Assembly (NCBI GenBank): GCA_037131675.1
Contig: JBAXQO010000001.1
Location: 25,795-89,794 of the forward strand
DNA from: a bacterium
Lineage (GTDB): Bacteria; Patescibacteriota; Minisyncoccia; Phycocordibacterales; CAIZIN01
DNA length: 64,000 bases
Direction of reading: 5' to 3'
Shown here: positions 1-42,264 of the stretch, piece by piece
How the letters are laid out: each line of letters begins with the position of its first letter
Numbering within the stretch: the stretch's first letter is position 1
Notes under the pieces: generated by a model
Told to the model about the DNA's origin: nothing
The model's input: only the letters and a program-made list of their open reading frames with translations
The model's database searches: none
Made by a program: the position numbers and the translations under genes

Positions 1-1
1 A

Positions 2-973
2 CTTGTAAATAACGAGTCAGAGATTCTTATTGCTTCAAATAACAATAAAAATAATCCTGATGTGTGTTTTCTTGTTCATGTGGATGTAGTGGCAGGTAGA
101 CCAGATCAATTTTCAATTAAAGTTAAAGACAATGTTGCTTATGGGCGAGGAGTGAGCGACATGAAATTTTCTATCCCTATTGGTTATTCCCTTTTGAATG
201 AAATGATTGAACAAAAAAGTAAATTGACCTTCTCATTAATAGTAACTTCTGATGAAGAGACAGGTGGTTTTAATGGTGCTCAATTTTTGGCAAAAAAATA
301 TGGTTTGAAACCAAAAATATTAATAGTACCTGATGGTGGTGATGATCTTATCTTTGTAAATAAATCAAAAGGAGTCTGCCAACTTCAAATCACTTCTTGT
401 GGTCGACCAGCTCACTCGTCTAGAATTTGGGAAGGGAGAAATGCAGTCGAACCAATCATCAGGTTATGTAATGAGCTGCTTAAGAGGTATGGTCAAAATA
501 ATAAAAAAGAGACATGGAATACTACCTTCAACATAAGTAAAATCAATGGGGGTATATCAACTAATCAAGTATGTGACAAAGCAGAGGTATCATTTGATTT
601 TCGTTTTCCAGAAGATACTTCATACAAAGAGATTAAAAATGAAGTATCTATAATTGCGAAGGAAATAAGTAGTGACTTATCTGTTAAATTACTTTCCTAC
701 GGTAACCCAACTTTTGTGGAAGAGAAAAATGAGACAGTTATCTTGTTTGTCAAGGCATTTGTTGAAAATTTTAAAAAACAGATAAAAATTGCAGGTACCC
801 ATGGAGCTTCGGATGCTCGTCACTTTACCTCATTAAATATCCCTATTTTAATGATTAAGCCTATAGGCGGAGATATACACGGTGAAAATGAACATATAAA
901 TATTGATTCATGCATCACCTACTACTCAGCTCTTAAAAGTTTTATGAGAAAACTTGAGTATCCTGAGAATTAA
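2..973 (+). CDS. M20-family metallopeptidase (ArgE/DapE-like); 5' end cut by window start
   Basis: Frame is open to position 2. HVDVV metal-binding motif and GRPAHSS motif are typical of peptidase M20 (acetylornithine deacetylase/succinyl-DAP desuccinylase family). Confidence 0.7.
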   Translation, partial: LVNNESEILIASNNNKNNPDVCFLVHVDVVAGRPDQFSIKVKDNVAYGRGVSDMKFSIPIGYSLLNEMIEQKSKLTFSLIVTSDEETGGFNGAQFLAKKYGLKPKILIVPDGGDDLIFVNKSKGVCQLQITSCGRPAHSSRIWEGRNAVEPIIRLCNELLKRYGQNNKKETWNTTFNISKINGGISTNQVCDKAEVSFDFRFPEDTSYKEIKNEVSIIAKEISSDLSVKLLSYGNPTFVEEKNETVILFVKAFVENFKKQIKIAGTHGASDARHFTSLNIPILMIKPIGGDIHGENEHINIDSCITYYSALKSFMRKLEYPEN

Positions 974-2637
974 AATAGCGACTTGAGAAATTCAGTCTTT
1001 CTTTGACCTCCCAACATTGAATAAACATAACCTAAAATTTCACCAATATCAGCATTTTCAATATCAATATAGTTTCTATCTGTTGCAATTAAACCACTTG
1101 CCCCATCCTTCTTTGACTCTGTTAGTATTTTTTTAATGATGGACTGCCAGTACTTAATATTCTTTTCACGCAAATCGATCCATCCACTATTAGCCCAAAG
1201 ATCAATATTTTTAGTACTAATAATATTTTCCTCCTTTATGTTTGGAACATAGAAGTACTCACCCGCTGTTACATGATCATCATTGAAAATAATAGGTAGT
1301 CCCAGAGATACAATTTGTGAACGTACTTGCTGATTGTCTTCTAAGAATTTATTTATTTTTTTAACTAAAGCACCACTTGAGGATTTAACAAGTACTGACA
1401 GAGATTTCTGACTACAAGCTAACATTAAATATATTTCGAAAAGATGTTTTGAAACTGTTGGACCGAGGTTGTTTGTTGCAATGCTAGGAATTGAATTTTT
1501 TACTTCTAGACCAGTAAGTCTATCAAGAATGATACGTCTTTGAATTCCACCTAAATGTGATGGTCCAAGTGCTACTAAGTCCATTGCAGTAAGTAGATCA
1601 TGTCTAGTTGATCCTATTGCCATTTCAATACAGGCTTGAGCAACTTCCTCCCTAGTCACACACTCCATTTGCCCCAACGCTGTTATAGCAGTCATTTCAC
1701 CTAAGCTATAAGCACAGTTTTCACCTGAATCAACGTAGGGCATTTCCATAAAAGTAGAAATTTGTTCACATTTGCCCGGAACAAAAACTTCACCAGATAC
1801 CAATTTAGTTTTTGTCTTAGAATCAACTAGAGGTATACCCCTACCATGAGAACGAAATTGACCAAAACCGACTCCTTGCCAACCAACAAGAGCAGCTGGA
1901 ACAACTACTTTTACGTTAATTCCTGGAGTGTGGGATAGGCCCCAAAATAATTGATGAATAACTCCAGCAGCAGCAACCTTACCCAGAATCCCAGAAGACA
2001 TACCGGGTTCATTTACATCACCGTGTGTATAAAAAAGATTATCACCCATACCACCCAAGCCAGTTGTAGATACTTTTACATAACACTTAACCTTAAAATC
2101 AAGCAAACTCTTTTTAAGAGCTTGAGTGAAGCGAATTAAACTAGGAACAATATTAGAAACAAGAAGGTTTTCTGTTGAATCACACCAGTCTTGTTTCTTA
2201 TCTCCCTTGTTTAAAATTCTTCTTGGAAGAGAATATGGATCATCCTGATAACCAACAACTGTTGCTGTATTAATACCATCAAAGATATAGTCTGGTTTCC
2301 ATTTTTTAACTAAGTAATACAAAGATGATTCTTTGATTAAGTCATCACTCAAATACGAGTAATAATATCTTATTAGTTCTTTTCTATTCTCGGACACATG
2401 AAGCTCATCACGATTAAGATTCATTAATTTCTTAGTAACTAGAGCATTACCCCATGAAATTTGAATATCAATGTTGCAATCTCCTAAATTTGCTTGAATA
2501 TTTTTAAATACCACTACAGCTTCTTTTTTAGTTAAAGTATGTAGGATAATTCTTTTAGGATTATTTTTAATTGATTTAAGAGCACAAGCTTCTCCAATTT
2601 GGCCAGCCCCTAGAATAAGTATAGTTTTATTTCTCAT
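970..2637 (-). CDS. Two-domain protein: N-terminal NAD(P)-binding Rossmann domain + C-terminal FabD-like acyltransferase-like domain; function unknown
   Basis: N-terminus ILGAGQIGEA is a GxGxxG dinucleotide fold. C-terminal half has GWQGVGFGQ followed ~66 residues later by AYSLGE, spacing and shape like the FabD GQGSQ...GHSLGE acyltransferase signature. Confidence 0.4.
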   Translation of the reverse strand: MRNKTILILGAGQIGEACALKSIKNNPKRIILHTLTKKEAVVVFKNIQANLGDCNIDIQISWGNALVTKKLMNLNRDELHVSENRKELIRYYYSYLSDDLIKESSLYYLVKKWKPDYIFDGINTATVVGYQDDPYSLPRRILNKGDKKQDWCDSTENLLVSNIVPSLIRFTQALKKSLLDFKVKCYVKVSTTGLGGMGDNLFYTHGDVNEPGMSSGILGKVAAAGVIHQLFWGLSHTPGINVKVVVPAALVGWQGVGFGQFRSHGRGIPLVDSKTKTKLVSGEVFVPGKCEQISTFMEMPYVDSGENCAYSLGEMTAITALGQMECVTREEVAQACIEMAIGSTRHDLLTAMDLVALGPSHLGGIQRRIILDRLTGLEVKNSIPSIATNNLGPTVSKHLFEIYLMLACSQKSLSVLVKSSSGALVKKINKFLEDNQQVRSQIVSLGLPIIFNDDHVTAGEYFYVPNIKEENIISTKNIDLWANSGWIDLREKNIKYWQSIIKKILTESKKDGASGLIATDRNYIDIENADIGEILGYVYSMLGGQRKTEFLKSLF

Positions 2638-3670
2638 AAAATGTTTTTTTTATGTTATCCACACTCTCATAGTCTGTGATTTTCATAGCATTTCTAACCT
2701 CCTTCATTGTAACAGATGCTAACTTTTGAGCCCTATTAGTACCCTCTAGTAAAGCCTCACGTACAGCTTCTGGATGAGCCTGGAAATAAGCTCTTCTCTC
2801 TCTAATCGGCGTCAAAAATGTATTTAAGACTTCAGATAAGATTTTTTTAAGTTCCCCATCACCAATTTTACCTTCCTTATATTTCTTTTTAAGGTCTTCC
2901 AATTCGGTGCTGTTTTTATGAAAAGCATCTAAGTAACTAAAAACAACATTGCCCTCGATATGTCCTGGATCTGTTGCTTTTAATCTTGTCGGGTCAGTAT
3001 ACATACTCTTTACCTTTCTATTTACCTCTTCTTCTGAATCAGATAAGTAAATACAATTATTCAAACTCTTACTTGCTTTGGCCTTACCATCAATACCAAT
3101 TAATCTAGGTATACGTCCAACCAGAGCCTGAGGTTCTTTAAAGACACTTCCGTAAACATTATTAAATTTACGGACAATTTCTCGTGTCAATTCAATATGT
3201 GGTAATTGGTCTTCTCCTACGGGCACAAGATCAGCCTGAGGTAGTAATATATCCGCAGCCTGAGAAACAGGATAATTATAAAATCCAAGAGAAACATCAC
3301 TTTTCTTTTGTTGAATAATTTCTGCCTTAAGCGTTGGATTTCGATCCACTAAAGAAATAGGAACAAACATACTCAATAACATAAATAGTTCGGCGTGTTC
3401 TGGAACATAACTCTGTATAACAAAAGAACATTTTTTTGGGTCTAATCCTACAGATAACCAGTCTAAGGTAACACTAATAACTGATTTTCTAATTCTATCT
3501 GTTTCACCTAGGTGATCACCTAAGGCTTGATAATCAGAAATTAGAAAAAAGCACTCATACTCATCTTGTAATTTTAGCCAATTTTCTAAAGCACCAACGT
3601 AGTGACCTAAATGAAGTGGTCCGGTTGGGCGTACCCCTGTTAAAATTCTTTTTTTAGGTTTATTCTCCAT
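2627..3670 (-). CDS. trpS: Tryptophanyl-tRNA synthetase, copy 1 (genome-typical low GC)
   Basis: Class I aaRS HIGH motif (PTGPLHLGH), QDEYECFF and VSQAADIL blocks typical of TrpRS. KMSKS present as KASKS. No cysteine cluster. Confidence 0.9.
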   Translation of the reverse strand: MENKPKKRILTGVRPTGPLHLGHYVGALENWLKLQDEYECFFLISDYQALGDHLGETDRIRKSVISVTLDWLSVGLDPKKCSFVIQSYVPEHAELFMLLSMFVPISLVDRNPTLKAEIIQQKKSDVSLGFYNYPVSQAADILLPQADLVPVGEDQLPHIELTREIVRKFNNVYGSVFKEPQALVGRIPRLIGIDGKAKASKSLNNCIYLSDSEEEVNRKVKSMYTDPTRLKATDPGHIEGNVVFSYLDAFHKNSTELEDLKKKYKEGKIGDGELKKILSEVLNTFLTPIRERRAYFQAHPEAVREALLEGTNRAQKLASVTMKEVRNAMKITDYESVDNIKKTFYEK

Positions 3671-3801
3671 GTGGAAAATAGTATACCATACTTAGTCAAG
3701 CCAAACACGTTGACAAGTTAGGTCTCACCTGTATACTCAAATAAGCTTATTGCACATTAACAGTTGGTGTTAGTCAAATACAAAAAAAGGAACACGAGAT
3801 T

Positions 3802-4809
3802 ATGAAAAAACGGATTCTAACAGGAGATCGACCTACGGGAAGGCTCCACATTGGCCATTTGGTTGGAACGCTTCAAAATCGCGTTCGACTTCAGGACGAA
3901 TATGAGTGCTTCTTCGTTATTGCCGATCTACAGGTCCTCACGGACCACATTGATCTTCACAGCAACATCGAAGCAAACATTTTCGAGGTGATGTGTGACT
4001 ATTTGAGTGTTGGATTGAAACCTGAAAATTGTTTCTTTATCCAATCACAAGTACCAGAACTTTGTGAACTGACCATGTATTTTTCCTTCCTGGTTTCTCT
4101 TGCTAGTGTACAGAGAAACCCAACGGTGAAAAGCGAGGCAGAAATGTATGGCGTGTCACAAATGAGTTTGGGCTTTGTTAGCTACCCTGTTTCTCAGGCC
4201 GCTGACATTCTTGCCTTTAATGCAGATTTAGTTCCTGTTGGACAGGATCAACTTCCGCATATTGAGCAAGCTCGAGAAGTCGCAAGAACTTTTAACAGAA
4301 CCTTCGGTAAGAAGATTTTCAATCTTCCTGAGGCGCTGGTTGGAGAGATACCTGTCTTATCAGGCACCAAAGGAGATCAGAAAATGAGCAAGAGTTTGAA
4401 TAATCAGATTGACCTTGCTCACTCTGGAGAAGAAACTTCGCTCAGAATCGGGAAGATGGTGACAGATGTTCAGCGTGTTTTTCGTAAAGATGTTGGACAC
4501 CCTGACAGTTGCCAAGCTTTTAAATACTGGTCCATCTTTGCCCCCGAAGCAACTCAACAAGTTCGTTTTGAGTGTGAGGGTGCAATGCGTGGCTGCAAGG
4601 AATGCAAAGCACAACTGGCAGATAAAATGAACACCTATCTTGGCGAGATCCGTGAGAAAAGGAAATACTATGCTTCCAAACCAAACCTTGTCTGGGAGAT
4701 TCTAGCTAGTGGTACCAAGCGAGCTCGTCAGGTTGCAAAACAAACCTTGATGGAAGTGAGAGAATCTATGCATCTTTCGTTTCCGCTCCTCAAACTGCCT
4801 TCTGACTAA
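3802..4809 (+). CDS. trpS: Tryptophanyl-tRNA synthetase paralog, copy 2 (higher GC, C-x20-C-x6-C-x2-C motif)
   Basis: HIGH (PTGRLHIGH) and KMSKS intact; ~50% identical to copy 1 by eye. Contains DSC...FECEGAMRGCKECK Cys4 arrangement resembling the [4Fe-4S] TrpRS of Thermotoga. Visibly GC-richer than flanks. Confidence 0.85.
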   Translation: MKKRILTGDRPTGRLHIGHLVGTLQNRVRLQDEYECFFVIADLQVLTDHIDLHSNIEANIFEVMCDYLSVGLKPENCFFIQSQVPELCELTMYFSFLVSLASVQRNPTVKSEAEMYGVSQMSLGFVSYPVSQAADILAFNADLVPVGQDQLPHIEQAREVARTFNRTFGKKIFNLPEALVGEIPVLSGTKGDQKMSKSLNNQIDLAHSGEETSLRIGKMVTDVQRVFRKDVGHPDSCQAFKYWSIFAPEATQQVRFECEGAMRGCKECKAQLADKMNTYLGEIREKRKYYASKPNLVWEILASGTKRARQVAKQTLMEVRESMHLSFPLLKLPSD

Positions 4810-4830
4810 GATGTAAGACTAGTAATAAAA

Positions 4831-4868
4831 ATCACCCAAGTGCTTCAGAGCTTTGGGTGATTTTCTTT
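4831..4868 (+). terminator. Rho-independent terminator after trpS copy 2
   Basis: ATCACCCAA...TTGGGTGAT stem followed by TTTTCTTT. Confidence 0.5.
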
Positions 4869-5003
4869 AAATAACTATACTGTATAATAATATAACCAAA
4901 TGTTATGAAAATACAGATCACCACACTTTAATTTAATAAAAGATTTTTATAGTAAAATATTCTTACTTTACTAAATATAATTCCACATATTAAGTATAAT
5001 TAA

Positions 5004-5960
5004 ATGACATGCATGCTAATAAATACCCTTAGTAAACAAAAGAAGCAGACTAAATTTGATTTAAGATTATTAAATTTTATAACAGAAACCATTGGACCCA
5101 AATTTGAAATTAGTAAGGTGTATGGTGGACTTGTACACGATGTATATAAAATTCATAATAAAAATACATATCATTATCTTAAACTAAGAGGAAGTTACTT
5201 TTCAATGATCCCAAACATAGTCATAAACCCCAAAGATATAAAATATGAAAAAAAGGCTTTAGAAATTTTCTCCAAATTATTACCGGATATTTTCCCTACA
5301 ATAATTGCCTTTAACGAGGAACTATCTGCGATTATTTTGAGCGATATCAACCCTTCTGGGTACACATTAGAACTTTTATTTAACCAACAAAAAGTCAATG
5401 TACTTATTATGGAAAAAATTGGAATAGCCTTAGGTAGAACTCATTTTTACTTGAGAACAATTACCGATTCAATCCGTCCAGATGACGACAAAAATTATTA
5501 TGAATCAAATTTTTGTGATAGATTTTTAAAGTTTAACTATCCAATCGCGAATATTTGCGCGAAAAAACTAGTTTCGGATCTCAAAAAAATTCCCAGACAA
5601 CTTATTTTATCAGACCTGTCTCCTAAGAATATAGGTATTAGTGAGGATAATAAAATTAGTTTTTTTGATTTAGAATGTGTACATAAAGGAAATACAATCT
5701 TTGATTTAGGGTTTTTGTTAGGACATATTACTTTACACTCAAAAAACAATTCAAATGTTCTTATTAAAAGTCTATTACAGGGCTATATGATGTCTATAAA
5801 TGATTCCATTGACTCTAAAATGTTAGAAAAAATTATGGGCATTACTATTTTATATAGATTATGTAATGAAATTATACCTTATCCATTACCTATTTCTGAT
5901 GCAGAAAAAAAGGCCCTAATTGAAAAAGCTTGTTGTTTATTAAATATAGATAAAAAATAG
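5004..5960 (+). CDS. APH/choline-kinase-like phosphotransferase fold protein
   Basis: LSDLSPKNIGI resembles the Brenner motif (hxDxxxxN) and FFDLE resembles the DFE/DLE metal-binding motif of the aminoglycoside phosphotransferase/ChoK family. Very AT-rich. Confidence 0.5.
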   Translation: MTCMLINTLSKQKKQTKFDLRLLNFITETIGPKFEISKVYGGLVHDVYKIHNKNTYHYLKLRGSYFSMIPNIVINPKDIKYEKKALEIFSKLLPDIFPTIIAFNEELSAIILSDINPSGYTLELLFNQQKVNVLIMEKIGIALGRTHFYLRTITDSIRPDDDKNYYESNFCDRFLKFNYPIANICAKKLVSDLKKIPRQLILSDLSPKNIGISEDNKISFFDLECVHKGNTIFDLGFLLGHITLHSKNNSNVLIKSLLQGYMMSINDSIDSKMLEKIMGITILYRLCNEIIPYPLPISDAEKKALIEKACCLLNIDKK

Positions 5961-6837: not shown

Positions 6838-6910
6838 GGGCGTGTCGGTTAATTGGTTAAACCCATAGTCTCCAAAACTATTACTGTGGGTTCAAGTCCC
6901 ACCACGCTCG
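6838..6910 (+). tRNA. tRNA-Trp (anticodon CCA)
   Basis: 73-nt cloverleaf folded by hand. Acceptor GGGCGTG/CACGCTC (one G-U). D-stem GGTT/AACC. Anticodon stem ATAGT/ACTAT with loop CTCCAAA (U33, CCA, A37). T-arm GTGGG-TTCAAGT-CCCAC. Discriminator G. No encoded CCA. Confidence 0.85.
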
Positions 6911-6938
6911 CGTCCCTTCTAGGTACAGATAAAAGAAA

Positions 6939-6981: not shown

Positions 6982-8103
6982 TCAGACTTTTTTTCCAGCA
7001 ACAATGATGTATGCCCCTAACCCAGTTTCCGTTTGGACAATAATGTCATCTAGCTCCTGGATAGTTCCAACTGGCTTTATACTTTCAATAATTTCAGTTG
7101 GAAGGATTGAAGTAAGTACAGGGTAAGTATATGATTCCAAAACACAAAGCCGATCTGGAATCATTCCTTTTATCTCACTCAGGGTATATGGCTGAGCAAA
7201 AATTGGGATTAATTCATTACCCAGCCTAACCTCCAAGCAATTTCTTTCCTGATCAATACCTGCAACTAATCCGAGTGGCCAAGGGAAAAAAGTTCTTTGG
7301 GCCCATGCCTCTTTGTTATAGAAAGAGATAAGAAAACGCCCGTGCGGTTTCAACACCCTCCTAATTTCAGAGAAGACAAAACTCAAATTTTGAACATCAC
7401 TCCCAGTGCCATTATTCATGATCAGAAATGAAACGGAACAATCTTCAACTGGGAATCGACTTTCAATGTCATGAACTTCCAGGTTGATATTTTTCAAACC
7501 CTCTTTTGCAACCCCTTTTAGGCCGAACTCAACCATCGCAGGACTTATATCGAACCCTTGGAGCTTTCTGAACCTTTTCGAGAGTCGTCTGATTTCCTTA
7601 CCTGTAGCACAACCTAAATCGAGAGCATATTTTCCATCACAAGATTGAGAGATTATTCTATCAATTACACCATGCTCAAATTTTGTAAGAGCAGCTGTTG
7701 CAGGATGCTCTCTATCATACTCCAAATCATATTTGGGGGCCCACGATTCAGTAAGCCTAATAAGATTAGCCTGAAGCTCTTCGTAAGTAGGGTTAAACTT
7801 CTCAGAAGAATTCCCAAGTCTTAAACTATCGACAATTACCATTTGGTTCTTGCACGACTCCCCAATGACTGGGTACAAAAGTGAGCGAGCAAATTCGGGA
7901 TTTACCCCCTCTTCTTCCGCCCACTTTGAAACTTGATCTAACCGTTCTTTTTCTTTTTGAGAACGATAAAGAGGAGAACCATCCTCAATCTTTATCATTG
8001 CAACTTCCTTTGCCAAACGAACACGCCTGGCCAACAAGTGGACAAAATGCCTATCGACAGATGCTATCTTTTGGCCTAAAATATCAAGTCTATCTTTTTT
8101 CAT
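6982..8103 (-). CDS. Chorismate mutase (AroQ-type) fused to class I SAM-dependent methyltransferase
   Basis: N-terminal LDILGQKIASVDRHFVHLLARRVRLAKEVAMIK...RSQKEKERL matches the AroQ chorismate mutase helix pattern. C-terminal DLGCATGKE...GFDISPAMVEFG is a class I MTase motif I. Start set at the ATG at 8101-8103, preceded by GGAGG 9 nt upstream. The longer tracked ORF (to 8280) would overlap the next gene. Confidence 0.65.
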   Translation of the reverse strand: MKKDRLDILGQKIASVDRHFVHLLARRVRLAKEVAMIKIEDGSPLYRSQKEKERLDQVSKWAEEEGVNPEFARSLLYPVIGESCKNQMVIVDSLRLGNSSEKFNPTYEELQANLIRLTESWAPKYDLEYDREHPATAALTKFEHGVIDRIISQSCDGKYALDLGCATGKEIRRLSKRFRKLQGFDISPAMVEFGLKGVAKEGLKNINLEVHDIESRFPVEDCSVSFLIMNNGTGSDVQNLSFVFSEIRRVLKPHGRFLISFYNKEAWAQRTFFPWPLGLVAGIDQERNCLEVRLGNELIPIFAQPYTLSEIKGMIPDRLCVLESYTYPVLTSILPTEIIESIKPVGTIQELDDIIVQTETGLGAYIIVAGKKV

Positions 8104-8215
8104 TTTAATGTACCTCCAGTTGACAATACTATTGGTTTGTATTGTTTTGTCAAATAAGAAAAAACCTTGTTCAACAGTTCTGTGTGTACAAGGTTTATAG
8201 ATATTAATATATATC

Positions 8216-8470
8216 CTAACTTTTTTTATTAATATTGAAGTGCGGCTCTGGAATCTCAGACTGACATTTTCCACAGACAATCTTTTCTTCCACTATTTTA
8301 GACGAAATGTATTGGTGGCATTCTTGACACCAAACCAATATCTTTTTGCATGAGGGACAGTGACGTTTCGAAACATCTTTGTCTGGTAAAATAATTCCGG
8401 AAGTACCGAAACCACAACTTAGACAAAAGAAACGAACGCCTATAGGATGTGTTTTTGGTATTGTATTCAT
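8216..8470 (-). CDS. Small Cys-rich zinc-ribbon protein (four CxxC pairs)
   Basis: CLSCG, CPSCK, CQEC, CGKCQ motifs in 84 aa. Confidence 0.5.
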   Translation of the reverse strand: MNTIPKTHPIGVRFFCLSCGFGTSGIILPDKDVSKRHCPSCKKILVWCQECHQYISSKIVEEKIVCGKCQSEIPEPHFNINKKS

Positions 8471-8613
8471 TTGTTAAATAACTGTTTGGTTATGATGTTA
8501 ACACTCGAAAAATATTTGTCAAAATGCCCCGTCAACATGTTCACATTATACTTTTCTTATTCCAATACATAACTTTACTTGACTAAACCACTACACTTTG
8601 ATAAAGTAGTTGA

Positions 8614-8928
8614 ATGAACTGGGACACGAAAGAAAACAAACGTTTAATTGAAGCAATCTTAGCTCTGGAAACAAGAGCTGAGGCTAAGTTGTTTTTGCGT
8701 GACCTCATGACCGAAGGGGAAATTGAAGAATTTGCAAAACGATTTAAAACAGCTGAAATGCTCGTAGATAAAATCCCCTACTCTATTATCGAAAAAGAGA
8801 CTGGCTTTAGCTCCACAACAGTCGCAAGAGTCTCTAAATGGCTCCGAGGCAAGCAAGGAGGCTACAAAGCGATGATTAACAAATTACATCATCATAACTC
8901 TAACCAAATAAGGAAAGAGTTGTCTTGA
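8614..8928 (+). CDS. TrpR-related YerC/YecD-family DNA-binding protein
   Basis: LIEAILALETRAEAKLFLRDLMTEGEIEEFAKRFKTAEML...TGFSSTTVARVSKWL closely parallels the Bacillus YerC (Trp repressor-like, PF01371) sequence pattern. Confidence 0.7.
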   Translation: MNWDTKENKRLIEAILALETRAEAKLFLRDLMTEGEIEEFAKRFKTAEMLVDKIPYSIIEKETGFSSTTVARVSKWLRGKQGGYKAMINKLHHHNSNQIRKELS

Positions 8929-32820: not shown

Positions 32821-35800
32821 TTACCCTTTGACCACTATGTTGATAAGCCTAGTTGGAACAAATACCACCTTAATAATCTCCTTCCCCTCAATCCACTTGA
32901 ATATGTCTAAATTATCTTTCAAACTCTCAAAAGCCTCTTTTTCTTCAATTGTCCTAGAAACCTTCATCTCTCCACGTAATTTACCGTTAACCTGAACCAC
33001 GATGGTCACAATATCGCTTTCAAGTTTCTTGGGGTCATATTTTGGCCATACAACTTCATGAATCGATTTTTTGTTCCCTAACGATCTCCACAACTCTTCC
33101 GACATATGGGGTGCAAATGGAGCTAGAATTTGGAGAAACTTTTCAAAATGACTTTTGTATACGGCTGGAGAATTATCCATCTCGTTAACTAAAATCATCA
33201 TGGCAGAAATGGCGGTGTTGAAATTAAATGACTCAATATCCTCTCCAACTTTTTTTATTGTCTTATTGAGAGTCTGCTCGTATGAATAAACGACTTTTTT
33301 ATCTTCAGAAATTTTTTCCTGTATTCTCCAAACTTTTTCAATAAACCTACGAGAACCAATTATTCCATCTGTAGACCAAGGCAACTGTGAATCAAATGGA
33401 CCAATGAACATTTCAAAAACTCTAAGTGTGTCTGCTCCATATGTTGCAACCACCTCATCTGGATTTACCACATTCCCCCATCTTTTTGACATCTTTCTGT
33501 TATCAGAACCGAGAATCATACCTTGGTTGCGAAGCGCCTTGAAAGGTTCTTTCATTGGTACGAGTTTTAAATCAAATAGGAACTTATGCCAGAAACGAGA
33601 ATACAAGAGATGTCCTGTTGCATGCTCCGCACCGCCCACATACATATCTACCTGTTTCCAATATTTTAAAGTTTTTTCACTTGCGAATTTTGAATTGTTA
33701 AGAGGGTCCATATAACGCAAGAAATACCAAGATGAACCTGCCCACCCAGGCATTGTGTTTGTTTCATATCCATTCTTCACCCAATCCTTCACACCAGCAA
33801 GTGGAGATTCTCCAGTACCTATTGGTTCATATGATTTAACATTTGGAAGTGTGAGTGGTAGTTCTTTTTCTTTAAGAGATTTTATTGTTCCGTCTTTTTC
33901 GTGAACCAATGGAATGGGCTCACCCCAATATCGCTGACGAGCAAAAATAGCATCGCGCATTTTATATTTTGTCACTAATTTTCCGCCCACAGCTTTTGTG
34001 ATTTCTTCTCTGGCTTTTTCAGAAGATAAAGCATTAAATTTTTCTGAATTTGAAAGCACACCATCGTCCGTATACGCACTCACACCTTTAATAACTCTGT
34101 CGAGCCAAACGTCCATCTCGGCATGACACATAAATGTAGTGTTTAGGCTTCTTTGATCTATCCACAAAATTTCATTTTCTTCTTGCTCTTCTTTAGAGAT
34201 TTCTTTTCTCTCATCTCCATCCAGTTCAAAATACACAAGACTTGTGAACGAAACCCTGTTTTGGTCTTTATGTTTTGCAAAATACTCCGCACGCACTTGC
34301 CCACCTAAAATTTTTGCATTTGTTAAGTTTGTGTAACCCGTTTCTTCCAAAACCTCTCTTTTTGCTGCATCAATCAAATCTTCTCCTTCATTTACTCCGC
34401 CCATTGGAAACGTATTCCAATGATGTTTTTTTGAATGCAAACATAAATATTTTCCAGTCTTAACATTCTTAACCATCGCCTGAACATTCTGTCTCTCAAC
34501 TTTTTGTTTACCTGCAACTGGTGGATTTCTTTTATCAATTCGCTCAGGAATAATAACTTCTTTTACTGGCAATTTATGTTTCTTGGCAAATTCCCAGTCT
34601 CTCTCATCATGTGCAGGTACAGCCATCACAGCACCTGTTCCATATGATGCAAGCACATAATCTGCAATCCACACAGGAACTTCTTCATTATTTACCGGAT
34701 TAATTGCATATATACTTTTTAGTTCAACTCCCGTTTTCCCCTTGCTTCCAACACGATCTTCTTCTGTTTTATTTTTTACTTCCTCAATATATTTCAAAAC
34801 CTCATTTTTATTTGAGACAAAAGTTAAAAGTTTTTGCACCAATTCATGTTCTGGAGCAAGCACAACGTAGGTCACACCAAAAAGCGTGTCAGCCCGTGTT
34901 GTGAATACTTTTATTTTTTCTCCTATTCCTTTAATTAAAAATTCAATTTCTGAACCTTCGCTTTTTCCAATCCAGTTTTTTTGAATTTCCTTGATATGTG
35001 AAGACCAATCTAAATCTGTTAAATCTTCAATGAGTCTATCTGCATATGCAGTGATACGTAAAAACCATTGCCGCAAAGATTTCTTTACTACAGAATACCC
35101 GCCACGTTCAGACACAGGTTTACCGTCTGGTCCGTCAACAATTTCATCGTTTGCAAGTACAGTGCCGAGCTCGGGACACCAGTTCACCTCACTGAAACCT
35201 TCGTAAGCCAAACGGTATTTCATCAAAAACTTATCGTGCGCAAGCTTATCCATATTCTTCCATTCTTTCGCAGTTATTATTGGAGTATCTAGATCGGCGG
35301 CAGCACTTACTTTTTCATTACCGTTTTTTTCTAAAATTTTAACAAGAGTTTCTATTGGCTCCGCTTTGTTTTTTGCAGTGTTATACCATGAATTGTAAAG
35401 CTTAAGAAAAATCCACTGAGTCCATTTATAATATTTTGGATCAGTTGTATTTATTTTTCTAGACCAATCATATGAAAATCCAATTTTATGGAGTTGCCCT
35501 TCAAAAGTCTTAACATTTTCCTCAACAGCTTTTCGAGGATGGATTTTGTGTTGAATGGCATATTGTTCGGCAGGCAAACCAAAAGCATCATAACCCATCG
35601 GATGAAGAACATTAAATCCTTTTACGCGCATGAGACGTGCGTACACATCACTTGCAATGTAGCCCCGTGGGTGCCCAACATGAAGACCTTGTCCAGAAGG
35701 ATACGGGAACATGTCTAATACATATTTCTTTGGTTTTTTGGTTGAAGACGCAGTTTTGTATATACCTTTTTTCTCCCACTCTTTCTGCCATTTGGATTCA

Positions 35801-35838
35801 ATCTTCTTATGGTCGTAAGCTTTAACTTTTTGTTTCAT
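32821..35838 (-). CDS. leuS: Leucyl-tRNA synthetase with an embedded Nudix hydrolase domain (~residues 440-585)
   Basis: MFPYPSGQGLHVGHPRGY HIGH region, CP1 editing domain (GTGAVMAVPAHDERDWEFA), KMSKR. Extra ~150-aa insert after CP1 with Nudix box GGVNEGEDLIDAAKREVLEETGY. Total 1005 aa. Confidence 0.9.
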   Translation of the reverse strand: MKQKVKAYDHKKIESKWQKEWEKKGIYKTASSTKKPKKYVLDMFPYPSGQGLHVGHPRGYIASDVYARLMRVKGFNVLHPMGYDAFGLPAEQYAIQHKIHPRKAVEENVKTFEGQLHKIGFSYDWSRKINTTDPKYYKWTQWIFLKLYNSWYNTAKNKAEPIETLVKILEKNGNEKVSAAADLDTPIITAKEWKNMDKLAHDKFLMKYRLAYEGFSEVNWCPELGTVLANDEIVDGPDGKPVSERGGYSVVKKSLRQWFLRITAYADRLIEDLTDLDWSSHIKEIQKNWIGKSEGSEIEFLIKGIGEKIKVFTTRADTLFGVTYVVLAPEHELVQKLLTFVSNKNEVLKYIEEVKNKTEEDRVGSKGKTGVELKSIYAINPVNNEEVPVWIADYVLASYGTGAVMAVPAHDERDWEFAKKHKLPVKEVIIPERIDKRNPPVAGKQKVERQNVQAMVKNVKTGKYLCLHSKKHHWNTFPMGGVNEGEDLIDAAKREVLEETGYTNLTNAKILGGQVRAEYFAKHKDQNRVSFTSLVYFELDGDERKEISKEEQEENEILWIDQRSLNTTFMCHAEMDVWLDRVIKGVSAYTDDGVLSNSEKFNALSSEKAREEITKAVGGKLVTKYKMRDAIFARQRYWGEPIPLVHEKDGTIKSLKEKELPLTLPNVKSYEPIGTGESPLAGVKDWVKNGYETNTMPGWAGSSWYFLRYMDPLNNSKFASEKTLKYWKQVDMYVGGAEHATGHLLYSRFWHKFLFDLKLVPMKEPFKALRNQGMILGSDNRKMSKRWGNVVNPDEVVATYGADTLRVFEMFIGPFDSQLPWSTDGIIGSRRFIEKVWRIQEKISEDKKVVYSYEQTLNKTIKKVGEDIESFNFNTAISAMMILVNEMDNSPAVYKSHFEKFLQILAPFAPHMSEELWRSLGNKKSIHEVVWPKYDPKKLESDIVTIVVQVNGKLRGEMKVSRTIEEKEAFESLKDNLDIFKWIEGKEIIKVVFVPTRLINIVVKG

Positions 35839-39718: not shown

Positions 39719-40711
39719 ATGAAAAAAGTAGCAATTGTTGGTGTTGGAGCTGTTGGAACCGAGTTGGTTCGGCTGCTGGTAAAAAGGCAGTTTCCATTTA
39801 GTTCAATAGTAATATTGGCCCGTTCAGAAAGAACCGAAATCATCGACGGAGTTTCCTACCAAGTGAAGGTAGCAACCCCGGAATCATTCAACGGTATCGA
39901 TATTGCTTTCTTTGCTGGGACTGAAGGATCGAAAGGTGCTTCTCAAACTCTTGGATGGGAGGCGGTGAAAAGAGGCTGCATCGTGATTGATAACGGAGAC
40001 GACTTCAGGATGAATGAGCGGATCCCACTCGTTATCCCCGAAATCAATGCCGCAGCACTCAAGAATCACAAAGGATTCATCGCCAATCCCAACTGCAGTA
40101 CAATCATTGCTTTGATGCCCCTTGCACCTCTTCATCGAGTTGCAAAAATCAAGCGCATCATCGCATGCACATATCAGGCTGTTTCGGGAACTGGTGCGCA
40201 AGCAATTAAAGAGCTTGAAGACCAAAGCAAGGCTTGGGCGAAAAATCGACCCATGCGTGCCGAGGTATACCCGCATCAGATCGCGTTCAACGTGATTCCT
40301 TGTGTTGGATCGTTCAAGGACGAATCAGGAGAAAGCACTGAAGAGATAAAGATGCGTCGAGAGATGCATAAGATTCTTCAAGACTCTTCGATTAAGATTG
40401 CGAATACTTGTGTGCGTGTACCAGTCTTCAACGGCCATAGTATCGCGATTAATGTTGAGTTTGAAAAGATCATCGGTCCAGCCGAAGCGCGGGAAATTCT
40501 TAGACAATCGCATGGCGTGAGAGTTGTAGATAGTCCCGCAAACTCATTATATCCAATACCAATTAATGCATCAGGTCAGTTTGATGTGTTGGTGGGCAGG
40601 ATACGAAGAGATCCGAGCATTGAAAACGGTCTAATCCTTTGGTGTTCGGGCGACAACATCTGGAAAGGTGCTGCTCAAAATGCAATACAGATTGCTGAAC
40701 AGTTAATATAA
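39719..40711 (+). CDS. asd: Aspartate-semialdehyde dehydrogenase
   Basis: VAIVGVGAVG Rossmann, NPNCST active-site Cys motif. High GC relative to genome. Confidence 0.9.
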   Translation: MKKVAIVGVGAVGTELVRLLVKRQFPFSSIVILARSERTEIIDGVSYQVKVATPESFNGIDIAFFAGTEGSKGASQTLGWEAVKRGCIVIDNGDDFRMNERIPLVIPEINAAALKNHKGFIANPNCSTIIALMPLAPLHRVAKIKRIIACTYQAVSGTGAQAIKELEDQSKAWAKNRPMRAEVYPHQIAFNVIPCVGSFKDESGESTEEIKMRREMHKILQDSSIKIANTCVRVPVFNGHSIAINVEFEKIIGPAEAREILRQSHGVRVVDSPANSLYPIPINASGQFDVLVGRIRRDPSIENGLILWCSGDNIWKGAAQNAIQIAEQLI

Positions 40712-40715
40712 AACC

Positions 40716-40758
40716 CCAAGAGTTGGCGGAGAAATCCACCAACTCTTTTTTATGGATT
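40716..40758 (+). terminator. Terminator after asd
   Basis: AAGAGTTGG...CCAACTCTT stem (with internal GGA/TCC extension) followed by TTTTTTAT. Confidence 0.55.
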
Positions 40759-40870: not shown

Positions 40871-42259
40871 ATGGGGCAAAACACCCTGTTTGATAAAGTC
40901 TGGGATCTGCACACTGTGCGGAGTCTCGGTGGCCAAGATCAGATCTTGGTGGGTACGCATTTAATCCATGAGGTCACGTCTCCCCAGGCGTTTCCCATGA
41001 TCGAAGAACGCGACCTTTGCGTGCGCTTTCCGAAGCGTACGTTTGCCACGGTGGATCACATCGTGCCAACCGACGTGCGTTCGCGTCCTCTCCAGGACCC
41101 GATCGCGGAAACCATGCTCCAACACTTGGAGCGCAACACATCGAAACACAACATCGCCTTGTTCAACCTTGGAGACAAAGATCAAGGAATCGTACACATC
41201 ATCGGACCGGAATTGGGAATCACCCAACCCGGAATGGTGATCGCCTGCGGCGATAGCCACACCTCCACACACGGAGCGTTTGGTGCCATCGCCCTCGGCA
41301 TCGGAACAACTCAAATCGCATGCGTTCTGGCAACAGGATGTCTGCTTCTCGAGCGTCCGAAAGTGCGCAAGATCCAAATCGACGGTGCGCTCGGAGAAAG
41401 CGTAACTGCAAAAGACATCATTCTTGCGATCATCAATCGTTTGGGAGTCAAAGGTGGTATCGGCTTCGCTTACGAGTTTGCCGGCAGCGCCATCAGAGAG
41501 CTCGATATGGAAGCTCGCATGACGATCTGCAACATGTCGATCGAAGGCGGCGCGCAGTGCGGTTACATCAATCCGGATGAACACACCATCGAATATCTGC
41601 ATGATCGGAAATACGTGCCGAAAGGTAACAATTACCAAAAAGCAGTGACGTGGTGGCTCAGTCTCGCATCGGGACCCGACGCGGAATACGACGATATCTT
41701 CGAACTTCCCGCAGAGGAAATCGAACCTATGATGACTTATGGGATCACTCCCGGACAGTCAATCGGCGTTAGCCAAATCATCCCAATCAACGCACCACAA
41801 GATGCACTTGATTATATGCTTCTTGAAGCAGGTAAACCTCTTCTCGGAACAGAAGTGGACGTTGCTTTCATCGGCTCATGCACTGAAGGTCGCATTAGCG
41901 ACTTCCGCGAAGCGGCAAATCTGATCAAGCGATACGGACTCAAAGTTGCACCTGGCGTTACCGCCCTTGCTGTTCCTGGTTCTGAAGCCGTTCGCCGTCA
42001 GGCTGAACAAGAAGGTCTCCACAAGATCTTCATCGAATCAGGATGGCAGTGGCGTGAGGCAGGTTGCAGCATGTGTTTAGCAATGAATCCCGACAAACTC
42101 AGGGGGAGCCAGTTGTGTGCATCAAGTTCAAATCGGAACTTCAAGGGTCGGCAAGGAAGCCCAACAGGGCGTACAGTGCTGATGTCATCGTTGTCAGTTG
42201 TCGCATGTGCGACGGCTGGGAAGATCGCAGACGTTCGTGAAATCATCGGAAGGAACTAA
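40871..42259 (+). CDS. leuC: 3-isopropylmalate (or homoaconitate) dehydratase large subunit
   Basis: Aconitase-family motifs [15 protein letters not shown]. High GC. Confidence 0.9.
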
Positions 42260-42264
42260 ACACC

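What the first reader, a model, noticed from the sequence alone, without database searches (positions are those of the whole stretch)
3802..4809. Second TrpRS is GC-rich and carries a Cys4 motif typical of [4Fe-4S] TrpRS
Copy 2 is visibly GC-richer (~50%) than its surroundings (~35%), suggesting horizontal acquisition. It has C-x20-C-x6-C-x2-C (DSC...FECEGAMRGCKECK), which the genome-typical copy 1 lacks. A very similar Cys4 spacing coordinates an Fe-S cluster in Thermotoga-type TrpRS. Hence one organism would carry a cluster-free and a cluster-containing TrpRS side by side.
Basis: partly seen in the sequence, partly recalled or inferred. Interest (0 to 1): 0.55.

Follow-up and report, generated by a model that had tools for sequence, protein, structure and literature searches.

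The report
Iron-sulfur-type second TrpRS gene

Summary
The ORF at 3802..4809 is an intact bacterial TrpRS (HIGH and KMSKS present, above the TIGR00233 cut-off). Its C237-x20-C258-x6-C265-x2-C268 motif aligns column for column with the [4Fe-4S] ligands Cys236/259/266/269 of T. maritima TrpRS. The four Cys are invariant in 63 diverse homologues and absent from the neighbouring paralogue (48% identity) and from 120 of that paralogue's homologues.

The GC claim is overstated. The gene is 44.3% GC, not ~50%, against 37.0% for the window and 31-35% for the flanks. It is still a real outlier (GC3 0.41 against 0.26 +/- 0.03 for the bulk genes).

Acquisition was not recent. The same pair, with the same GC offset, occurs in at least four related metagenome genomes. 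It is co-inherited and both genes are under purifying selection. The whole Cys4 clade is GC-richer than its host DNA (19 of 20 loci).

Han et al. 2010 already reported organisms with one Cys4 TrpRS and one Cys-free TrpRS, so this is a new member of a known kind. Why both copies are kept is inferred, not shown: most likely a backup for when the Fe-S cofactor fails.

One side lead: the cluster-free copy lies in a conserved module with an Ind2-like reductase, which recalls ind0/ind1/ind2 of the indolmycin pathway.

The parts
3802..4809 (+). Copy 2: Cys4-type ([4Fe-4S]-motif) tryptophanyl-tRNA synthetase, 335 aa (NCBI MEI6479926.1)
   Evidence: ORF. PF00579 and TIGR00233 above cut-off. PDB sequence matches. 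Model pLDDT 93 and Foldseek match to 2g36 at TM 0.89/0.92. dN/dS 0.02-0.05 against orthologues. Accession.
3847..3858 (+). HIGH signature (residues 16-19)
   Evidence: Translation. H16, G18 and H19 are invariant in 63 homologues.
4381..4395 (+). KMSKS signature (residues 194-198)
   Evidence: Translation. K194 and M195 are invariant.
4510..4605 (+). C237-x20-C258-x6-C265-x2-C268 motif in the anticodon-binding domain
   Evidence: Translation. Aligns with Cys236/259/266/269 of T. maritima TrpRS. The four Cys are invariant in 63 homologues. The motif is present in 115 of the 120 best homologues.
3710..3737 (+). Promoter of copy 2 (TTGACA, 16 nt, TATACT)
   Evidence: 11 of 12 match to consensus. 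Both the -35 and -10 blocks are conserved in the intergenic regions of L094, L095 and L098.
4823..4869 (+). Hairpin plus T-run just after the copy 2 stop codon: probable terminator, making the gene monocistronic
   Evidence: Inverted repeat I3, 17-nt arms, 88% complementary, followed by TTTTCTTTA.
2627..3670 (-). Copy 1: cluster-free TrpRS paralogue, 347 aa, HLGH and KASKS (NCBI MEI6479925.1)
   Evidence: No Cys4 in it or in 120 homologues; KASKS in 17 of those. GC3 0.24, typical of the genome.
970..2637 (-). 555-aa protein with an SDR-like N-terminal half and a PF27054 (Beta_methylindole_red_C) C-terminal half. Its start overlaps the end of copy 1, so the two form an operon.
   Evidence: Precomputed Pfam assignment. 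The local Pfam copy lacks the model. Model pLDDT 88; N-terminal half matches SDR ketoreductases weakly. The pairing with a TrpRS recurs in L041, L092, L093, L094, L095, L170 and L171.
6838..6911 (+). tRNA-Trp, anticodon CCA, discriminator G73 (bacterial identity)
   Evidence: ARAGORN and Rfam. Acceptor stem read from the sequence.
6982..8103 (-). Fusion of a chorismate-mutase-like (CM_2) domain and a class I SAM methyltransferase
   Evidence: Pfam. Gene limits as called on identical contigs. A homologue follows a TrpRS in L075 and L095.
8614..8928 (+). TrpR-related YerC/YecD family protein
   Evidence: PF01371 at 3e-18; TIGR02531 at 59.9 bits against a cut-off of 42.2. Also present beside the module in L091 and L171.
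1..973 (+). M20 (ArgE/DapE-type) deacylase, cut by the window start
   Evidence: Pfam and NCBIfam. The full 371-aa gene is on identical contigs. It recurs beside the TrpRS/PF27054 pair in L092, L170 and L171.

Best explanation
Shown:
- 3802..4809 encodes a complete, selectively maintained bacterial TrpRS of the Thermotoga / Deinococcus-II / Chlamydia subfamily.
- Its anticodon-binding domain carries, at homologous positions, the four cysteines (C237, C258, C265, C268) and the arginine (R225) that hold and contact the [4Fe-4S] cluster of T. maritima TrpRS.
- It has its own conserved sigma-70-type promoter and a probable terminator hairpin just after the stop codon.
- It lies back to back with a cluster-free paralogue (copy 1, 48% identity). 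A bacterial-type tRNA-Trp (CCA, G73) lies 2 kb away.
- The gene belongs to a large clade of Cys4 TrpRS genes on metagenome contigs whose named members are mostly Patescibacteria/CPR. In that clade the gene normally heads a cassette: TrpRS, a 260-aa unknown ORF and a B12 radical-SAM gene, facing SAM_HAT, an unknown 263-aa ORF and a PPDK-like gene.
- The clade is almost always GC-richer than its host DNA.

Inferred from the gene tree and synteny:
- One branch of that clade was placed beside the resident, genome-typical TrpRS once, in the ancestor of this small lineage.
- The pair has been co-inherited since, with both genes under purifying selection, so the two enzymes are not redundant.

Inferred only:
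- Both enzymes charge tRNA-Trp.
- The Fe-S enzyme works when clusters can be built and kept (anoxic, iron-replete conditions). The cluster-free enzyme secures Trp-tRNA when clusters are lost to oxygen, NO, oxidants or iron shortage.
- This would be a cofactor-dependent and cofactor-independent isozyme pair, as described for the zinc-dependent duplicated ThrRS of Anabaena.
For: - Identity and integrity.
- Ligand homology: HMMER alignment to 2g36 (E = 1e-23 for the C-terminal 161 aa, all four Cys aligned), with ligand numbers and Arg224 taken from PMC2954223.
- Conservation: the four Cys are invariant and R225 is at least 90% conserved in 63 homologues of 51-86% identity. 115 of the 120 best homologues keep the motif.
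- Fold: pLDDT 93; 2g36 at TM 0.89/0.92.
- Copy 1 and its 120 homologues lack the motif.
- Expression signals.
- Both copies are functional: dN/dS 0.015-0.05.
- The pair is old and co-inherited. Orthologous pairs occur in L005 (tandem) and in L094, L095 and L098 (divergent). Pair-type copy 2 sequences are monophyletic and sister to a cassette-type sequence. Protein distances of the two genes co-vary across six genome pairs (r = 0.93, same topology).
- The identical locus was assembled independently in four samples.
- Compositional foreignness.
- Copy 1 is the resident gene: it has genome-typical GC3 and sits in the M20 / TrpRS / PF27054 / TrpR-like module that occurs without copy 2 in L170, L171 and L092.
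- Precedent: Han et al. state that in organisms with several TrpRS genes only one carries the motif.
Against: - No biochemical data exist, so a [4Fe-4S] cluster, a zinc ion or nothing at all could occupy the site.
- The first Cys-Cys gap (x20) lies outside the x21-24 range published in 2010.
- The backup-isozyme rationale rests on analogy only. I found no redox or iron regulator site.
- The GC3 excess has survived synonymous saturation in four co-inheriting genomes. A simple old-transfer-with-amelioration model does not predict that.
- I could not examine whole genomes. Genomes with the cassette-type gene may also carry a copy-1-type gene elsewhere, in which case no inter-lineage transfer is needed.
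- Copy 1 has KASKS instead of KMSKS and is operonic with an Ind2-like reductase, which points to a different reason for the duplication (see rivals).
- The host's taxonomy rests only on the names of the nearest homologues.
Confidence: 0.6

Rival explanations
1. Immunity pair. The locus is a small tryptophan-analogue pathway related to the first half of indolmycin biosynthesis: ind0 is a TrpRS, ind1 a C-methyltransferase and ind2 a ketoreductase that makes indolmycenic acid. Two TrpRS genes are kept because one of them is insensitive to the product. Copy 1, operonic with the Ind2-like gene, is the more likely immune copy, and copy 2 would then be the ordinary enzyme.
For: - The 555-aa gene overlapping copy 1 carries PF27054 'Beta_methylindole_red_C', and so do about 115 of its 120 listed homologues. 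Its N-terminal half resembles SDR ketoreductases.
- A SAM methyltransferase fused to a CM_2 domain, two GNATs, an M20 deacylase, an APH-like kinase and a TrpR-like regulator lie within 9 kb.
- The TrpRS + PF27054 pairing recurs in distant genomes. In Wukongibacter sp. M2B1 (L093) it lies among B12 radical-SAM, carrier-protein, carbamoyltransferase and thioesterase genes. In L092 it lies beside a methyltransferase and a tRNA_edit deacylase.
- The roles of Ind0 (TrpRS), Ind1 and Ind2 are described in PMC5925218 and PMC8246080.
Against: - The module TrpRS + PF27054 + M20 occurs in L170, L171 and L092 with only one TrpRS within 10 kb. There it looks like housekeeping tryptophan handling rather than antibiotic synthesis plus immunity.
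- No homologues of the later indolmycin steps (Ind3 to Ind7) were seen.
- The link between PF27054 and Ind2 rests on the family's name. I could not compare with the Ind0, Ind1 or Ind2 sequences.
- CPR genomes are small and poor in biosynthesis genes.
Confidence: 0.2
2. There was no transfer. Both TrpRS types are old residents of this bacterial group, and the GC excess of the Cys4 gene is maintained by gene-specific selection or a similar process. The back-to-back arrangement arose by an internal rearrangement.
For: - Both clades have many Patescibacteria-labelled members at 65-85% identity.
- The GC3 excess persists despite saturated synonymous sites and co-inheritance, and it is clade-wide.
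- No mobile-element boundaries flank the gene and there are no viral copies.
Against: - No locus in hand shows the cassette-type gene and a copy-1-type gene together, apart from the one monophyletic pair clade.
- Copy 2 groups in composition with other metabolic genes in the window that look foreign: LeuC/D-like, asd and PurC-PurE.
- Highly expressed housekeeping genes here are not GC3-rich, so no obvious selective cause is known.
Confidence: 0.2
3. The four cysteines bind a structural zinc ion, or form no metal site at all, rather than a [4Fe-4S] cluster. The Fe-S label would then be wrong, although the motif is homologous.
For: - Cys4 sites with a CxxC element often bind zinc in other aaRS (general knowledge).
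- The first gap is two residues shorter than in T. maritima.
- Sequence cannot tell the metals apart.
Against: - The domain is homologous throughout (about 42% identity overall; alignment). All four ligands and the cluster-contacting Arg are conserved.
- The only solved member of this motif group holds a [4Fe-4S] cluster, confirmed by X-ray fluorescence and mass spectrometry.
Confidence: 0.12
4. Recent horizontal acquisition by this organism: a freshly arrived GC-rich gene next to the native one.
For: GC3 is 0.41 against 0.26 for the bulk genes.
Against: - Orthologous pairs with the same offset occur in at least four diverged relatives. The divergence is deep (copy 2 77-85% and copy 1 81-92% amino-acid identity, pS 0.58-0.87), the topology is congruent and the distances correlate.
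- The window's copy has the lowest GC of the pair clade (0.44 against 0.49-0.53). That fits a long residence.
Confidence: 0.03
5. One copy is not a standard TrpRS. Copy 1 (KASKS, operonic with the reductase) may activate a tryptophan analogue or hydroxy acid, or serve a pathway, leaving copy 2 as the only true housekeeping TrpRS.
For: - KMSKS has become KASKS only in the sub-clade closest to copy 1 (17 of 120 homologues). Six of nine loci of that sub-clade have a second TrpRS within 3 kb.
- In L041 a different, very divergent TrpRS paralogue occupies the place of copy 2.
- Copy 2 has canonical HIGH and KMSKS motifs and a strong promoter.
Against: - Copy 1 scores higher than copy 2 against the trpS equivalog model (287 against 240 bits) and against solved TrpRS structures.
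- Copy 1 is under strong purifying selection.
- KASKS copies occur with no second TrpRS within 10 kb in L172 and L173 and within the held part of L013.
- The second position of KMSKS varies among class I synthetases (general knowledge).
Confidence: 0.1

Closest known systems
Thermotoga maritima TrpRS TM0492 (PDB 2G36), the [4Fe-4S]-containing TrpRS of Han et al. 2010
   Same: - Same TrpRS subfamily and fold (42% identity, TM 0.89/0.92).
- The four Cys ligands and Arg224 are at homologous positions in the anticodon-binding domain.
- HIGH and KMSKS are present.
- Han et al. also report that genomes with several TrpRS genes have the motif in only one of them.
   Different: - The first gap is x20 instead of x22 (published range x21-24), owing to a two-residue deletion between Cys1 and Cys2.
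- The host is a low-GC uncultured bacterium, probably CPR, from metagenomes, not a thermophile.
- Here the gene lies directly beside the cluster-free paralogue.
- Cluster binding is untested.
Deinococcus radiodurans TrpRS II (PDB 1YI8/2A4M), an auxiliary TrpRS that partners with nitric oxide synthase
   Same: - It is the best PDB sequence match for both copies (272 and 350 bits).
- It is also an example of a second TrpRS of this subfamily kept beside another TrpRS in one genome.
   Different: - It has no Cys4 motif.
- No NOS gene was found among the ORFs scanned around the pair.
- Here both copies belong to this subfamily, whereas D. radiodurans pairs it with a standard TrpRS I (general knowledge).
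Producer or immunity TrpRS genes: Ind0 of the Streptomyces griseus indolmycin cluster, the cxn-cluster TrpRS, and S. coelicolor TrpRS1
   Same: A second TrpRS sits next to tryptophan-modifying genes. The window has a TrpRS, a PF27054 (Ind2-named) reductase and a SAM methyltransferase, which parallels ind0/ind1/ind2.
   Different: - The reductase is linked to copy 1, not to the Cys4 copy.
- The later pathway genes are absent.
- The module also occurs where only one TrpRS is seen nearby.
- Resistance is untested, and no sequence comparison with Ind0 was possible.
[quoted passage not shown] 2017, PMC5370408)
   Same: These are also CPR loci that combine two TrpRS genes, a tRNA-Trp gene and a TrpR-family gene. 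One TrpRS-A subgroup is predicted to bind a [4Fe-4S] cluster.
   Different: Here both enzymes are bacterial-type and the tRNA-Trp has the bacterial G73 discriminator. There is no archaeal-type TrpRS-A.
Duplicated ThrRS T1/T2 of Anabaena (zinc-dependent enzyme plus a backup expressed under zinc limitation; Rubio et al. 2015, cited)
   Same: It gives a mechanistic precedent for keeping two synthetases of the same specificity that differ in their dependence on a metal cofactor.
   Different: It involves a different synthetase class and a different metal. Regulation by metal supply is documented there and unknown here.

Membership tests
Bacterial tryptophanyl-tRNA synthetase (TIGR00233 trpS; Pfam PF00579) | Whole-protein score above the curated cut-offs | tested here: met
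   TIGR00233 at 240.5 bits (cut-off 176.75) and PF00579 at 174 bits (cut-off 21.1).
Bacterial tryptophanyl-tRNA synthetase (TIGR00233 trpS; Pfam PF00579) | Class I signatures HIGH and KMSKS | tested here: met
   HIGH at residues 16-19 and KMSKS at 194-198, invariant in homologues.
Bacterial tryptophanyl-tRNA synthetase (TIGR00233 trpS; Pfam PF00579) | TrpRS fold (Rossmann domain plus helical anticodon-binding domain) | tested here: met
   Model pLDDT 93.1. The 50 best listed PDB matches are TrpRS chains or a design built on one; 6ncr, 2g36 and 1yi8 have TM of about 0.9.
Bacterial tryptophanyl-tRNA synthetase (TIGR00233 trpS; Pfam PF00579) | Tryptophan-dependent aminoacylation of tRNA-Trp | not testable with these tools
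   Needs an enzyme assay or complementation. dN/dS of 0.02-0.05 shows only that the protein is maintained.
[4Fe-4S]-cluster TrpRS (Han et al. 2010) | [quoted passage not shown] This was the search criterion of Han et al. | tested here: met
   C237...C258-x6-C265-x2-C268. All four align with Tm Cys236/259/266/269.
[4Fe-4S]-cluster TrpRS (Han et al. 2010) | Conserved Arg contacting a cluster sulfide (Tm Arg224) | tested here: met
   R225 lies 12 residues before Cys1, as in T. maritima, and is at least 90% conserved in 63 homologues. The Arg is also present in the cluster-free copy 1, so it does not discriminate.
[4Fe-4S]-cluster TrpRS (Han et al. 2010) | First gap within the reported range of x21-24. 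This range is descriptive, not a ligand requirement. | tested here: not met
   The gap is x20 here and in 111 of the 115 motif-bearing homologues, because of a two-residue gap in the alignment to 2g36. I treat this as a widening of the empirical range, not as exclusion.
[4Fe-4S]-cluster TrpRS (Han et al. 2010) | Physical presence of a [4Fe-4S] cluster | not testable with these tools
   Requires purified protein and spectroscopy or metal analysis.
[4Fe-4S]-cluster TrpRS (Han et al. 2010) | In genomes with several TrpRS genes, only one carries the motif | tested here: met
   Copy 1 has N, Y, D and L at the four positions. The same holds for the orthologous pair in L005 and for L094, L095 and L098.
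Auxiliary TrpRS II / NOS partner (D. radiodurans type) | A nitric oxide synthase gene associated with the TrpRS | tested here: not met
   None of the ten ORFs within about 5 kb on either side matches an NOS family. The rest of the genome is unknown.
Immunity TrpRS of a TrpRS-inhibitor gene cluster (Ind0 type) | Location inside a cluster that makes a tryptophan-analogue inhibitor | tested here: inconclusive
   Genes with PF27054 (Ind2-named) and a SAM-methyltransferase domain are adjacent, but they are operonic or syntenic with copy 1 rather than copy 2, and later pathway steps are missing.
Immunity TrpRS of a TrpRS-inhibitor gene cluster (Ind0 type) | Insensitivity to the inhibitor | not testable with these tools
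   Needs inhibition assays.

The most novel reading that the evidence does not exclude
The two synthetases may belong to a so far undescribed tryptophan module of CPR bacteria. In it, a TrpRS, an Ind2-like ketoreductase, a SAM C-methyltransferase, deacylases, acetyltransferases and a TrpR-like regulator would make or detoxify a beta-methyl-indolelactate-type tryptophan analogue. The Cys4 (Fe-S) TrpRS and the KASKS TrpRS would differ in sensitivity to that compound, and/or in sensitivity to oxygen and iron supply. Charging of tRNA-Trp would then be switched between two enzymes according to chemistry or redox state. The unexplained, long-lived GC excess of the Cys4 gene clade would mark a gene block that moves among these genomes or is under unusual selection.
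Probability: 0.15. Interest if true: 0.75.

Novelty: new member of a known kind. Interest (0 to 1): 0.4.

Why it matters
The role of the [4Fe-4S] cluster in TrpRS has been open since 2010: stability, anticodon recognition or sensing. A natural pair of a cluster-type and a cluster-free TrpRS, of the same subfamily, 48% identical, adjacent, co-inherited and both under purifying selection, gives a clean comparative system for testing what the cluster does. It could also show whether cells use such pairs as cofactor backups. It further shows that Cys4 TrpRS is common in mesophilic, uncultured Patescibacteria-like genomes and not only in thermophiles, and that the motif's first gap can be x20. The linked TrpRS / Ind2-like reductase module is a separate lead into tryptophan handling, or TrpRS-inhibitor chemistry, in CPR bacteria.

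Tried and rejected
It returned only hits of 51% identity or less, mostly copy-1-like, so it gave little on taxonomy and nothing on the close Cys4 clade.
- I suspected that the GC-rich ORF at 40871..42259 was the B12 radical-SAM partner seen next to Cys4 TrpRS elsewhere. It is an aconitase-family (LeuC-like) gene. No cassette partner is present anywhere in the window.
- A search for mobile-element boundaries or repeats around copy 2 found nothing convincing.
- The scan of viral contigs for the Cys4 clade found nothing.
- Rfam found only tRNAs: no T-box or other leader.
- The idea that KASKS in copy 1 always goes with a second TrpRS nearby fails in L172, L173 and L013.
- The local Pfam-A gives no hit for the 555-aa protein, so PF27054 rests on precomputed annotations.
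- PDB sequence search for the 555-aa protein found nothing. Foldseek gave only weak SDR matches to its N-terminal half.
- The CM_2-methyltransferase matches only generic class I methyltransferases in the PDB, so an Ind1-like role is unsupported by sequence.
- The apparent fusion of CM_2 with the PF27054 protein (P0138, L091) is best read as a deletion variant of this same locus, not as independent evidence of functional linkage.
Full report
**What is at the coordinates**

The window has an ATG ORF at 3802..4809 (+), 335 aa. It is a bacterial TrpRS:
- PF00579 at 5e-51.
- TIGR00233 trpS at 240.5 bits, against a cut-off of 176.75.
- Best solved relatives by sequence: D. radiodurans TrpRS II (2a4m/1yi8, about 6e-80), Chlamydia trachomatis TrpRS (6ncr, 1e-73) and T. 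maritima TrpRS (2g36, 5e-72).
- HIGH is at residues 16-19 and KMSKS at residues 194-198.

A second TrpRS, copy 1 (2627..3670, minus strand, 347 aa), lies 131 bp away and is transcribed divergently. The two proteins are 48% identical. Both belong to the same TrpRS subfamily.

**The cysteine motif**

Han et al. (PMC2954223) show that the [4Fe-4S] cluster of T. maritima TrpRS is held by Cys236, Cys259, Cys266 and Cys269 (C-x22-C-x6-C-x2-C), with Arg224 contacting a sulfide. They also report that homologues carry C-x(21-24)-C-x6-C-x2-C.
- In the HMMER alignment of the C-terminal 161 residues to 2g36 (E = 1e-23), all four Cys align with the four ligands. A two-residue gap between Cys1 and Cys2 accounts for x20 against x22. 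The Arg 12 residues before Cys1 is kept.
- In an alignment of 63 homologues (51-86% identity) the four Cys are invariant and R225 is at least 90% conserved.
- 115 of the 120 best homologues carry the motif, and 111 of those have x20.
- An AlphaFold model (pLDDT 93.1, pTM 0.90) matches 2g36 with TM 0.89/0.92 and rmsd 2.1 A.
- Copy 1 has N, Y, D and L at the four positions. None of its 120 best homologues has the motif.

Whether a cluster is bound cannot be decided from sequence.

**Composition**

- Copy 2 is 44.3% GC, and its richest 300 nt reach 46.7%.
- The window is 37.0%, copy 1 is 35.1%, and the flanking 2 kb are 34.6% and 31.0%.

The gene is still a real outlier.
- GC3 is 0.414, against 0.263 +/- 0.033 for 55 bulk genes (z = +4.5).
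- It is sixth highest of 61 genes.
- The five higher genes are aconitase-family LeuC-like and LeuD-like genes, a PurC-PurE fusion, asd and one unknown gene. These are metabolic genes that also look foreign.
- DnaK, DnaJ, RpoA, LeuRS and AlaRS have ordinary GC3. High expression is therefore not the explanation.

**Age of the pair**

The identical locus was assembled in four independent samples, so it is not an assembly artefact. Related contigs carry orthologues of both genes next to each other:
- L005: copy 2 at 77% identity and copy 1 at 81%, here in tandem.
- L094 and L095: copy 2 at 84-85% and copy 1 at 90-92%, divergent.
- L098: copy 2 at 79% and copy 1 at 95% over the part held.

In each relative the Cys4 gene is much GC-richer than its partner (0.49-0.53 against 0.38-0.39).

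Both genes are under strong purifying selection (dN/dS 0.015-0.05), while synonymous sites are saturated (pS 0.58-0.87). The protein distances of the two genes across six genome pairs co-vary (r = 0.93) and give the same branching order. In a neighbour-joining tree the pair-type copy 2 sequences form one clade.

The pair therefore arose once and has been co-inherited. It is not a recent arrival in this organism.

**The wider Cys4 clade**

A metagenome scan with the C-terminal domain, followed by tblastn, found about 25 non-redundant loci with copy-2-clade genes at 62-76% identity. In almost all of them the gene heads a conserved cassette:
- The TrpRS, then a 260-aa ORF with no Pfam match, then often a B12-binding radical-SAM enzyme.
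- Facing these: a SAM_HAT protein, an unknown 263-aa ORF, and a PPDK_N / PEP-utilizer protein with a MerR-type HTH.

None of these partners is present in the window.

In 19 of 20 non-redundant loci with at least 3 kb of other DNA, the Cys4 gene is GC-richer than the rest of its locus (mean +10 points, up to +18). The 260-aa ORF and the radical-SAM gene share the excess. The convergent genes do not.

The pair clade is sister to one cassette-type sequence, L088. No copy was found on viral contigs, and no repeat boundaries flank the gene here.

The GC excess is thus a long-standing property of this gene block in AT-rich hosts. It is compatible with an old transfer, but a simple amelioration model does not explain its persistence. 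I record this as unexplained.

**Which copy is resident**

Copy 1 has genome-typical composition. Its stop region overlaps the start of a 555-aa gene (970..2637) that carries PF27054 'Beta_methylindole_red_C' in the precomputed annotations. The local Pfam copy lacks that model. The N-terminal half of its model resembles SDR ketoreductases weakly.

The set of a copy-1-type TrpRS, a PF27054 protein and an M20 deacylase, often with a TrpR-like YerC protein, a GNAT and a SAM methyltransferase, recurs in L041, L092, L170 and L171 without any Cys4 gene nearby. Copy 1 is therefore the resident gene in its usual module, and copy 2 is the addition.

Named relatives of all three genes are mostly Patescibacteria / Paceibacterota, including a Vogelbacteria MAG. 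The NCBI record itself says only 'bacterium'. The host is probably a CPR bacterium, but that is not established.

**Expression signals and substrate tRNA**
- Copy 2 has a near-consensus promoter (TTGACA, 16 nt, TATACT, at 3710-3737). Its -35 and -10 blocks are conserved in L094, L095 and L098.
- A hairpin with a T-run follows the stop codon (4823-4869).
- A tRNA-Trp gene (CCA anticodon) lies at 6838-6911. Its acceptor stem ends in discriminator G73, the bacterial identity. This differs from the archaeal-type A73 tRNA-Trp / TrpRS-A operons that Mukai et al. described in CPR bacteria.

**How it most likely works**

Shown: there are two intact TrpRS genes of one subfamily, each maintained by selection. 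One has the complete ligand set of the Thermotoga Fe-S site and the other lacks it.

Inferred: both charge the same tRNA-Trp. They are kept because they differ in a property tied to the cluster. The simplest candidate is dependence on Fe-S assembly and sensitivity to oxygen, oxidants or iron supply, which would make copy 1 a cofactor-independent backup, or the reverse. The duplicated zinc-dependent and backup ThrRS of Anabaena is a precedent known to me from the literature; it was cited but not read here.

I give about 0.8 to 'a functional Cys4 TrpRS that is homologous to the Tm Fe-S site and anciently paired with a cluster-free paralogue'. I give about 0.35 to the backup rationale specifically. 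The combined figure is 0.6.

**Main rival**

The neighbourhood recalls the start of the indolmycin cluster: ind0 is a TrpRS (immunity), ind1 an indolepyruvate C-methyltransferase, and ind2 an NADH ketoreductase that gives indolmycenic acid (PMC5925218 and PMC8246080).

The window has a TrpRS, a PF27054 reductase, a CM_2-methyltransferase fusion (6982..8103), two GNATs, an M20 deacylase, an APH-like kinase and a TrpR-like protein. In Wukongibacter sp. M2B1 a TrpRS-like gene and a PF27054 gene sit inside an evident biosynthetic cluster. In L092 the set includes a tRNA_edit deacylase.

Two TrpRS genes could thus reflect immunity to a tryptophan analogue. Against this:
- The module is common where only one TrpRS is seen within 10 kb.
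- The later pathway genes are absent.
- The PF27054-to-Ind2 link rests on a family name.
- The methyltransferase matches only generic enzymes.

**Other points considered**
- Copy 1 and its nearest relatives have KASKS in place of KMSKS (17 of 120 homologues). This could mean altered function. However, copy 1 scores higher than copy 2 on the trpS model, and KASKS copies also occur with no second TrpRS nearby.
- A zinc site instead of Fe-S cannot be excluded.

**Comparison with what is known, and novelty**

Han et al. 2010 already described Cys4 TrpRS homologues, and already noted that genomes with several TrpRS genes have the motif in only one copy. This locus is therefore a new member of a known kind. 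What is added here:
- The x20 spacing, found in more than 100 sequences.
- The abundance of the type in mesophilic CPR-like genomes.
- Physical adjacency to, and long co-inheritance with, the cluster-free paralogue.
- The clade-wide GC anomaly.
- The separate TrpRS / PF27054 module.

Interest is moderate (0.4). The finding is useful as a natural comparative system for the unresolved role of the TrpRS cluster, with one side lead that could prove more novel.

Noticed in passing
window 1-2637, 6982-8928; loci L041, L092, L093, L094, L095, L170, L171: A recurrent module: a copy-1-type TrpRS, a ~550-aa PF27054 'Beta_methylindole_red_C' protein and an M20 deacylase, often with a TrpR-like YerC protein, a GNAT and a SAM methyltransferase. 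In Wukongibacter sp. M2B1 (CP138200) the TrpRS-like + PF27054 pair lies inside a biosynthetic cluster. This parallels ind0/ind1/ind2 of indolmycin biosynthesis.
   Followed up: partly
window 2627-3670 (-): Copy 1 and its closest relatives (13 homologues of at least 80% identity, plus 4 others) have KASKS instead of the class I KMSKS signature. More distant homologues have KMSKS.
   Followed up: partly
loci L088, L089, L096-L129: A conserved cassette around Cys4-clade TrpRS genes: the TrpRS, a 260-aa ORF with no Pfam match, and often a B12-binding radical-SAM enzyme, facing SAM_HAT, an unknown 263-aa ORF and a PPDK_N / PEP-utilizer protein with a MerR HTH. The first three genes form a GC-rich block in AT-rich DNA.
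   Followed up: partly
L041 12881-13876: A relative with orthologues of copy 1 (83%) and the PF27054 gene (77%) carries a third, very divergent TrpRS paralogue (331 aa, HIGN and KMSKT, about 31% identity, no Cys4) where the window has copy 2.
   Followed up: no
L091 6310-7992: A syntenic relative in which the CM_2 domain is fused in frame to the PF27054 protein. Both TrpRS genes, the kinase, the GNAT and tRNA-Trp are missing from the locus. This is probably a deletion variant, or possibly an assembly artefact.
   Followed up: no
window 39719-42876, 54661-55968, 56086-57291: Other strongly GC-rich genes in a 37% GC window: asd (GC3 0.43), aconitase-family LeuC-like (0.56) and LeuD-like (0.68), a SAICAR-synthetase / AIR-carboxylase fusion (0.51) and an unknown 401-aa ORF (0.43). 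These are probably foreign metabolic genes.
   Followed up: partly
window 32821-35838 (-): The leucyl-tRNA synthetase (1005 aa) has a NUDIX domain inserted at residues 462-565.
   Followed up: no
window 44278-44365 (-): The tRNA-Ser has anticodon loop UUACUAA, so its anticodon is ACU rather than the usual GCU for AGY codons.
   Followed up: partly
window 5004-5960 (+): An APH / methylthioribose-kinase-like ORF directly downstream of copy 2, with very low GC (27.9%). Among the loci examined it was seen only on the contigs identical to the window.
   Followed up: no
window 58302-58358 (+): A weak, partial tRNA-like Rfam match (30.8 bits against a gathering score of 29, model positions 9-63) that ARAGORN did not call.
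   Followed up: no
L172 6992-9498: Two PheRS-alpha-like (tRNA-synt_2d) genes lie side by side next to a KASKS-type TrpRS. This is another duplicated synthetase in this group of genomes.
   Followed up: no
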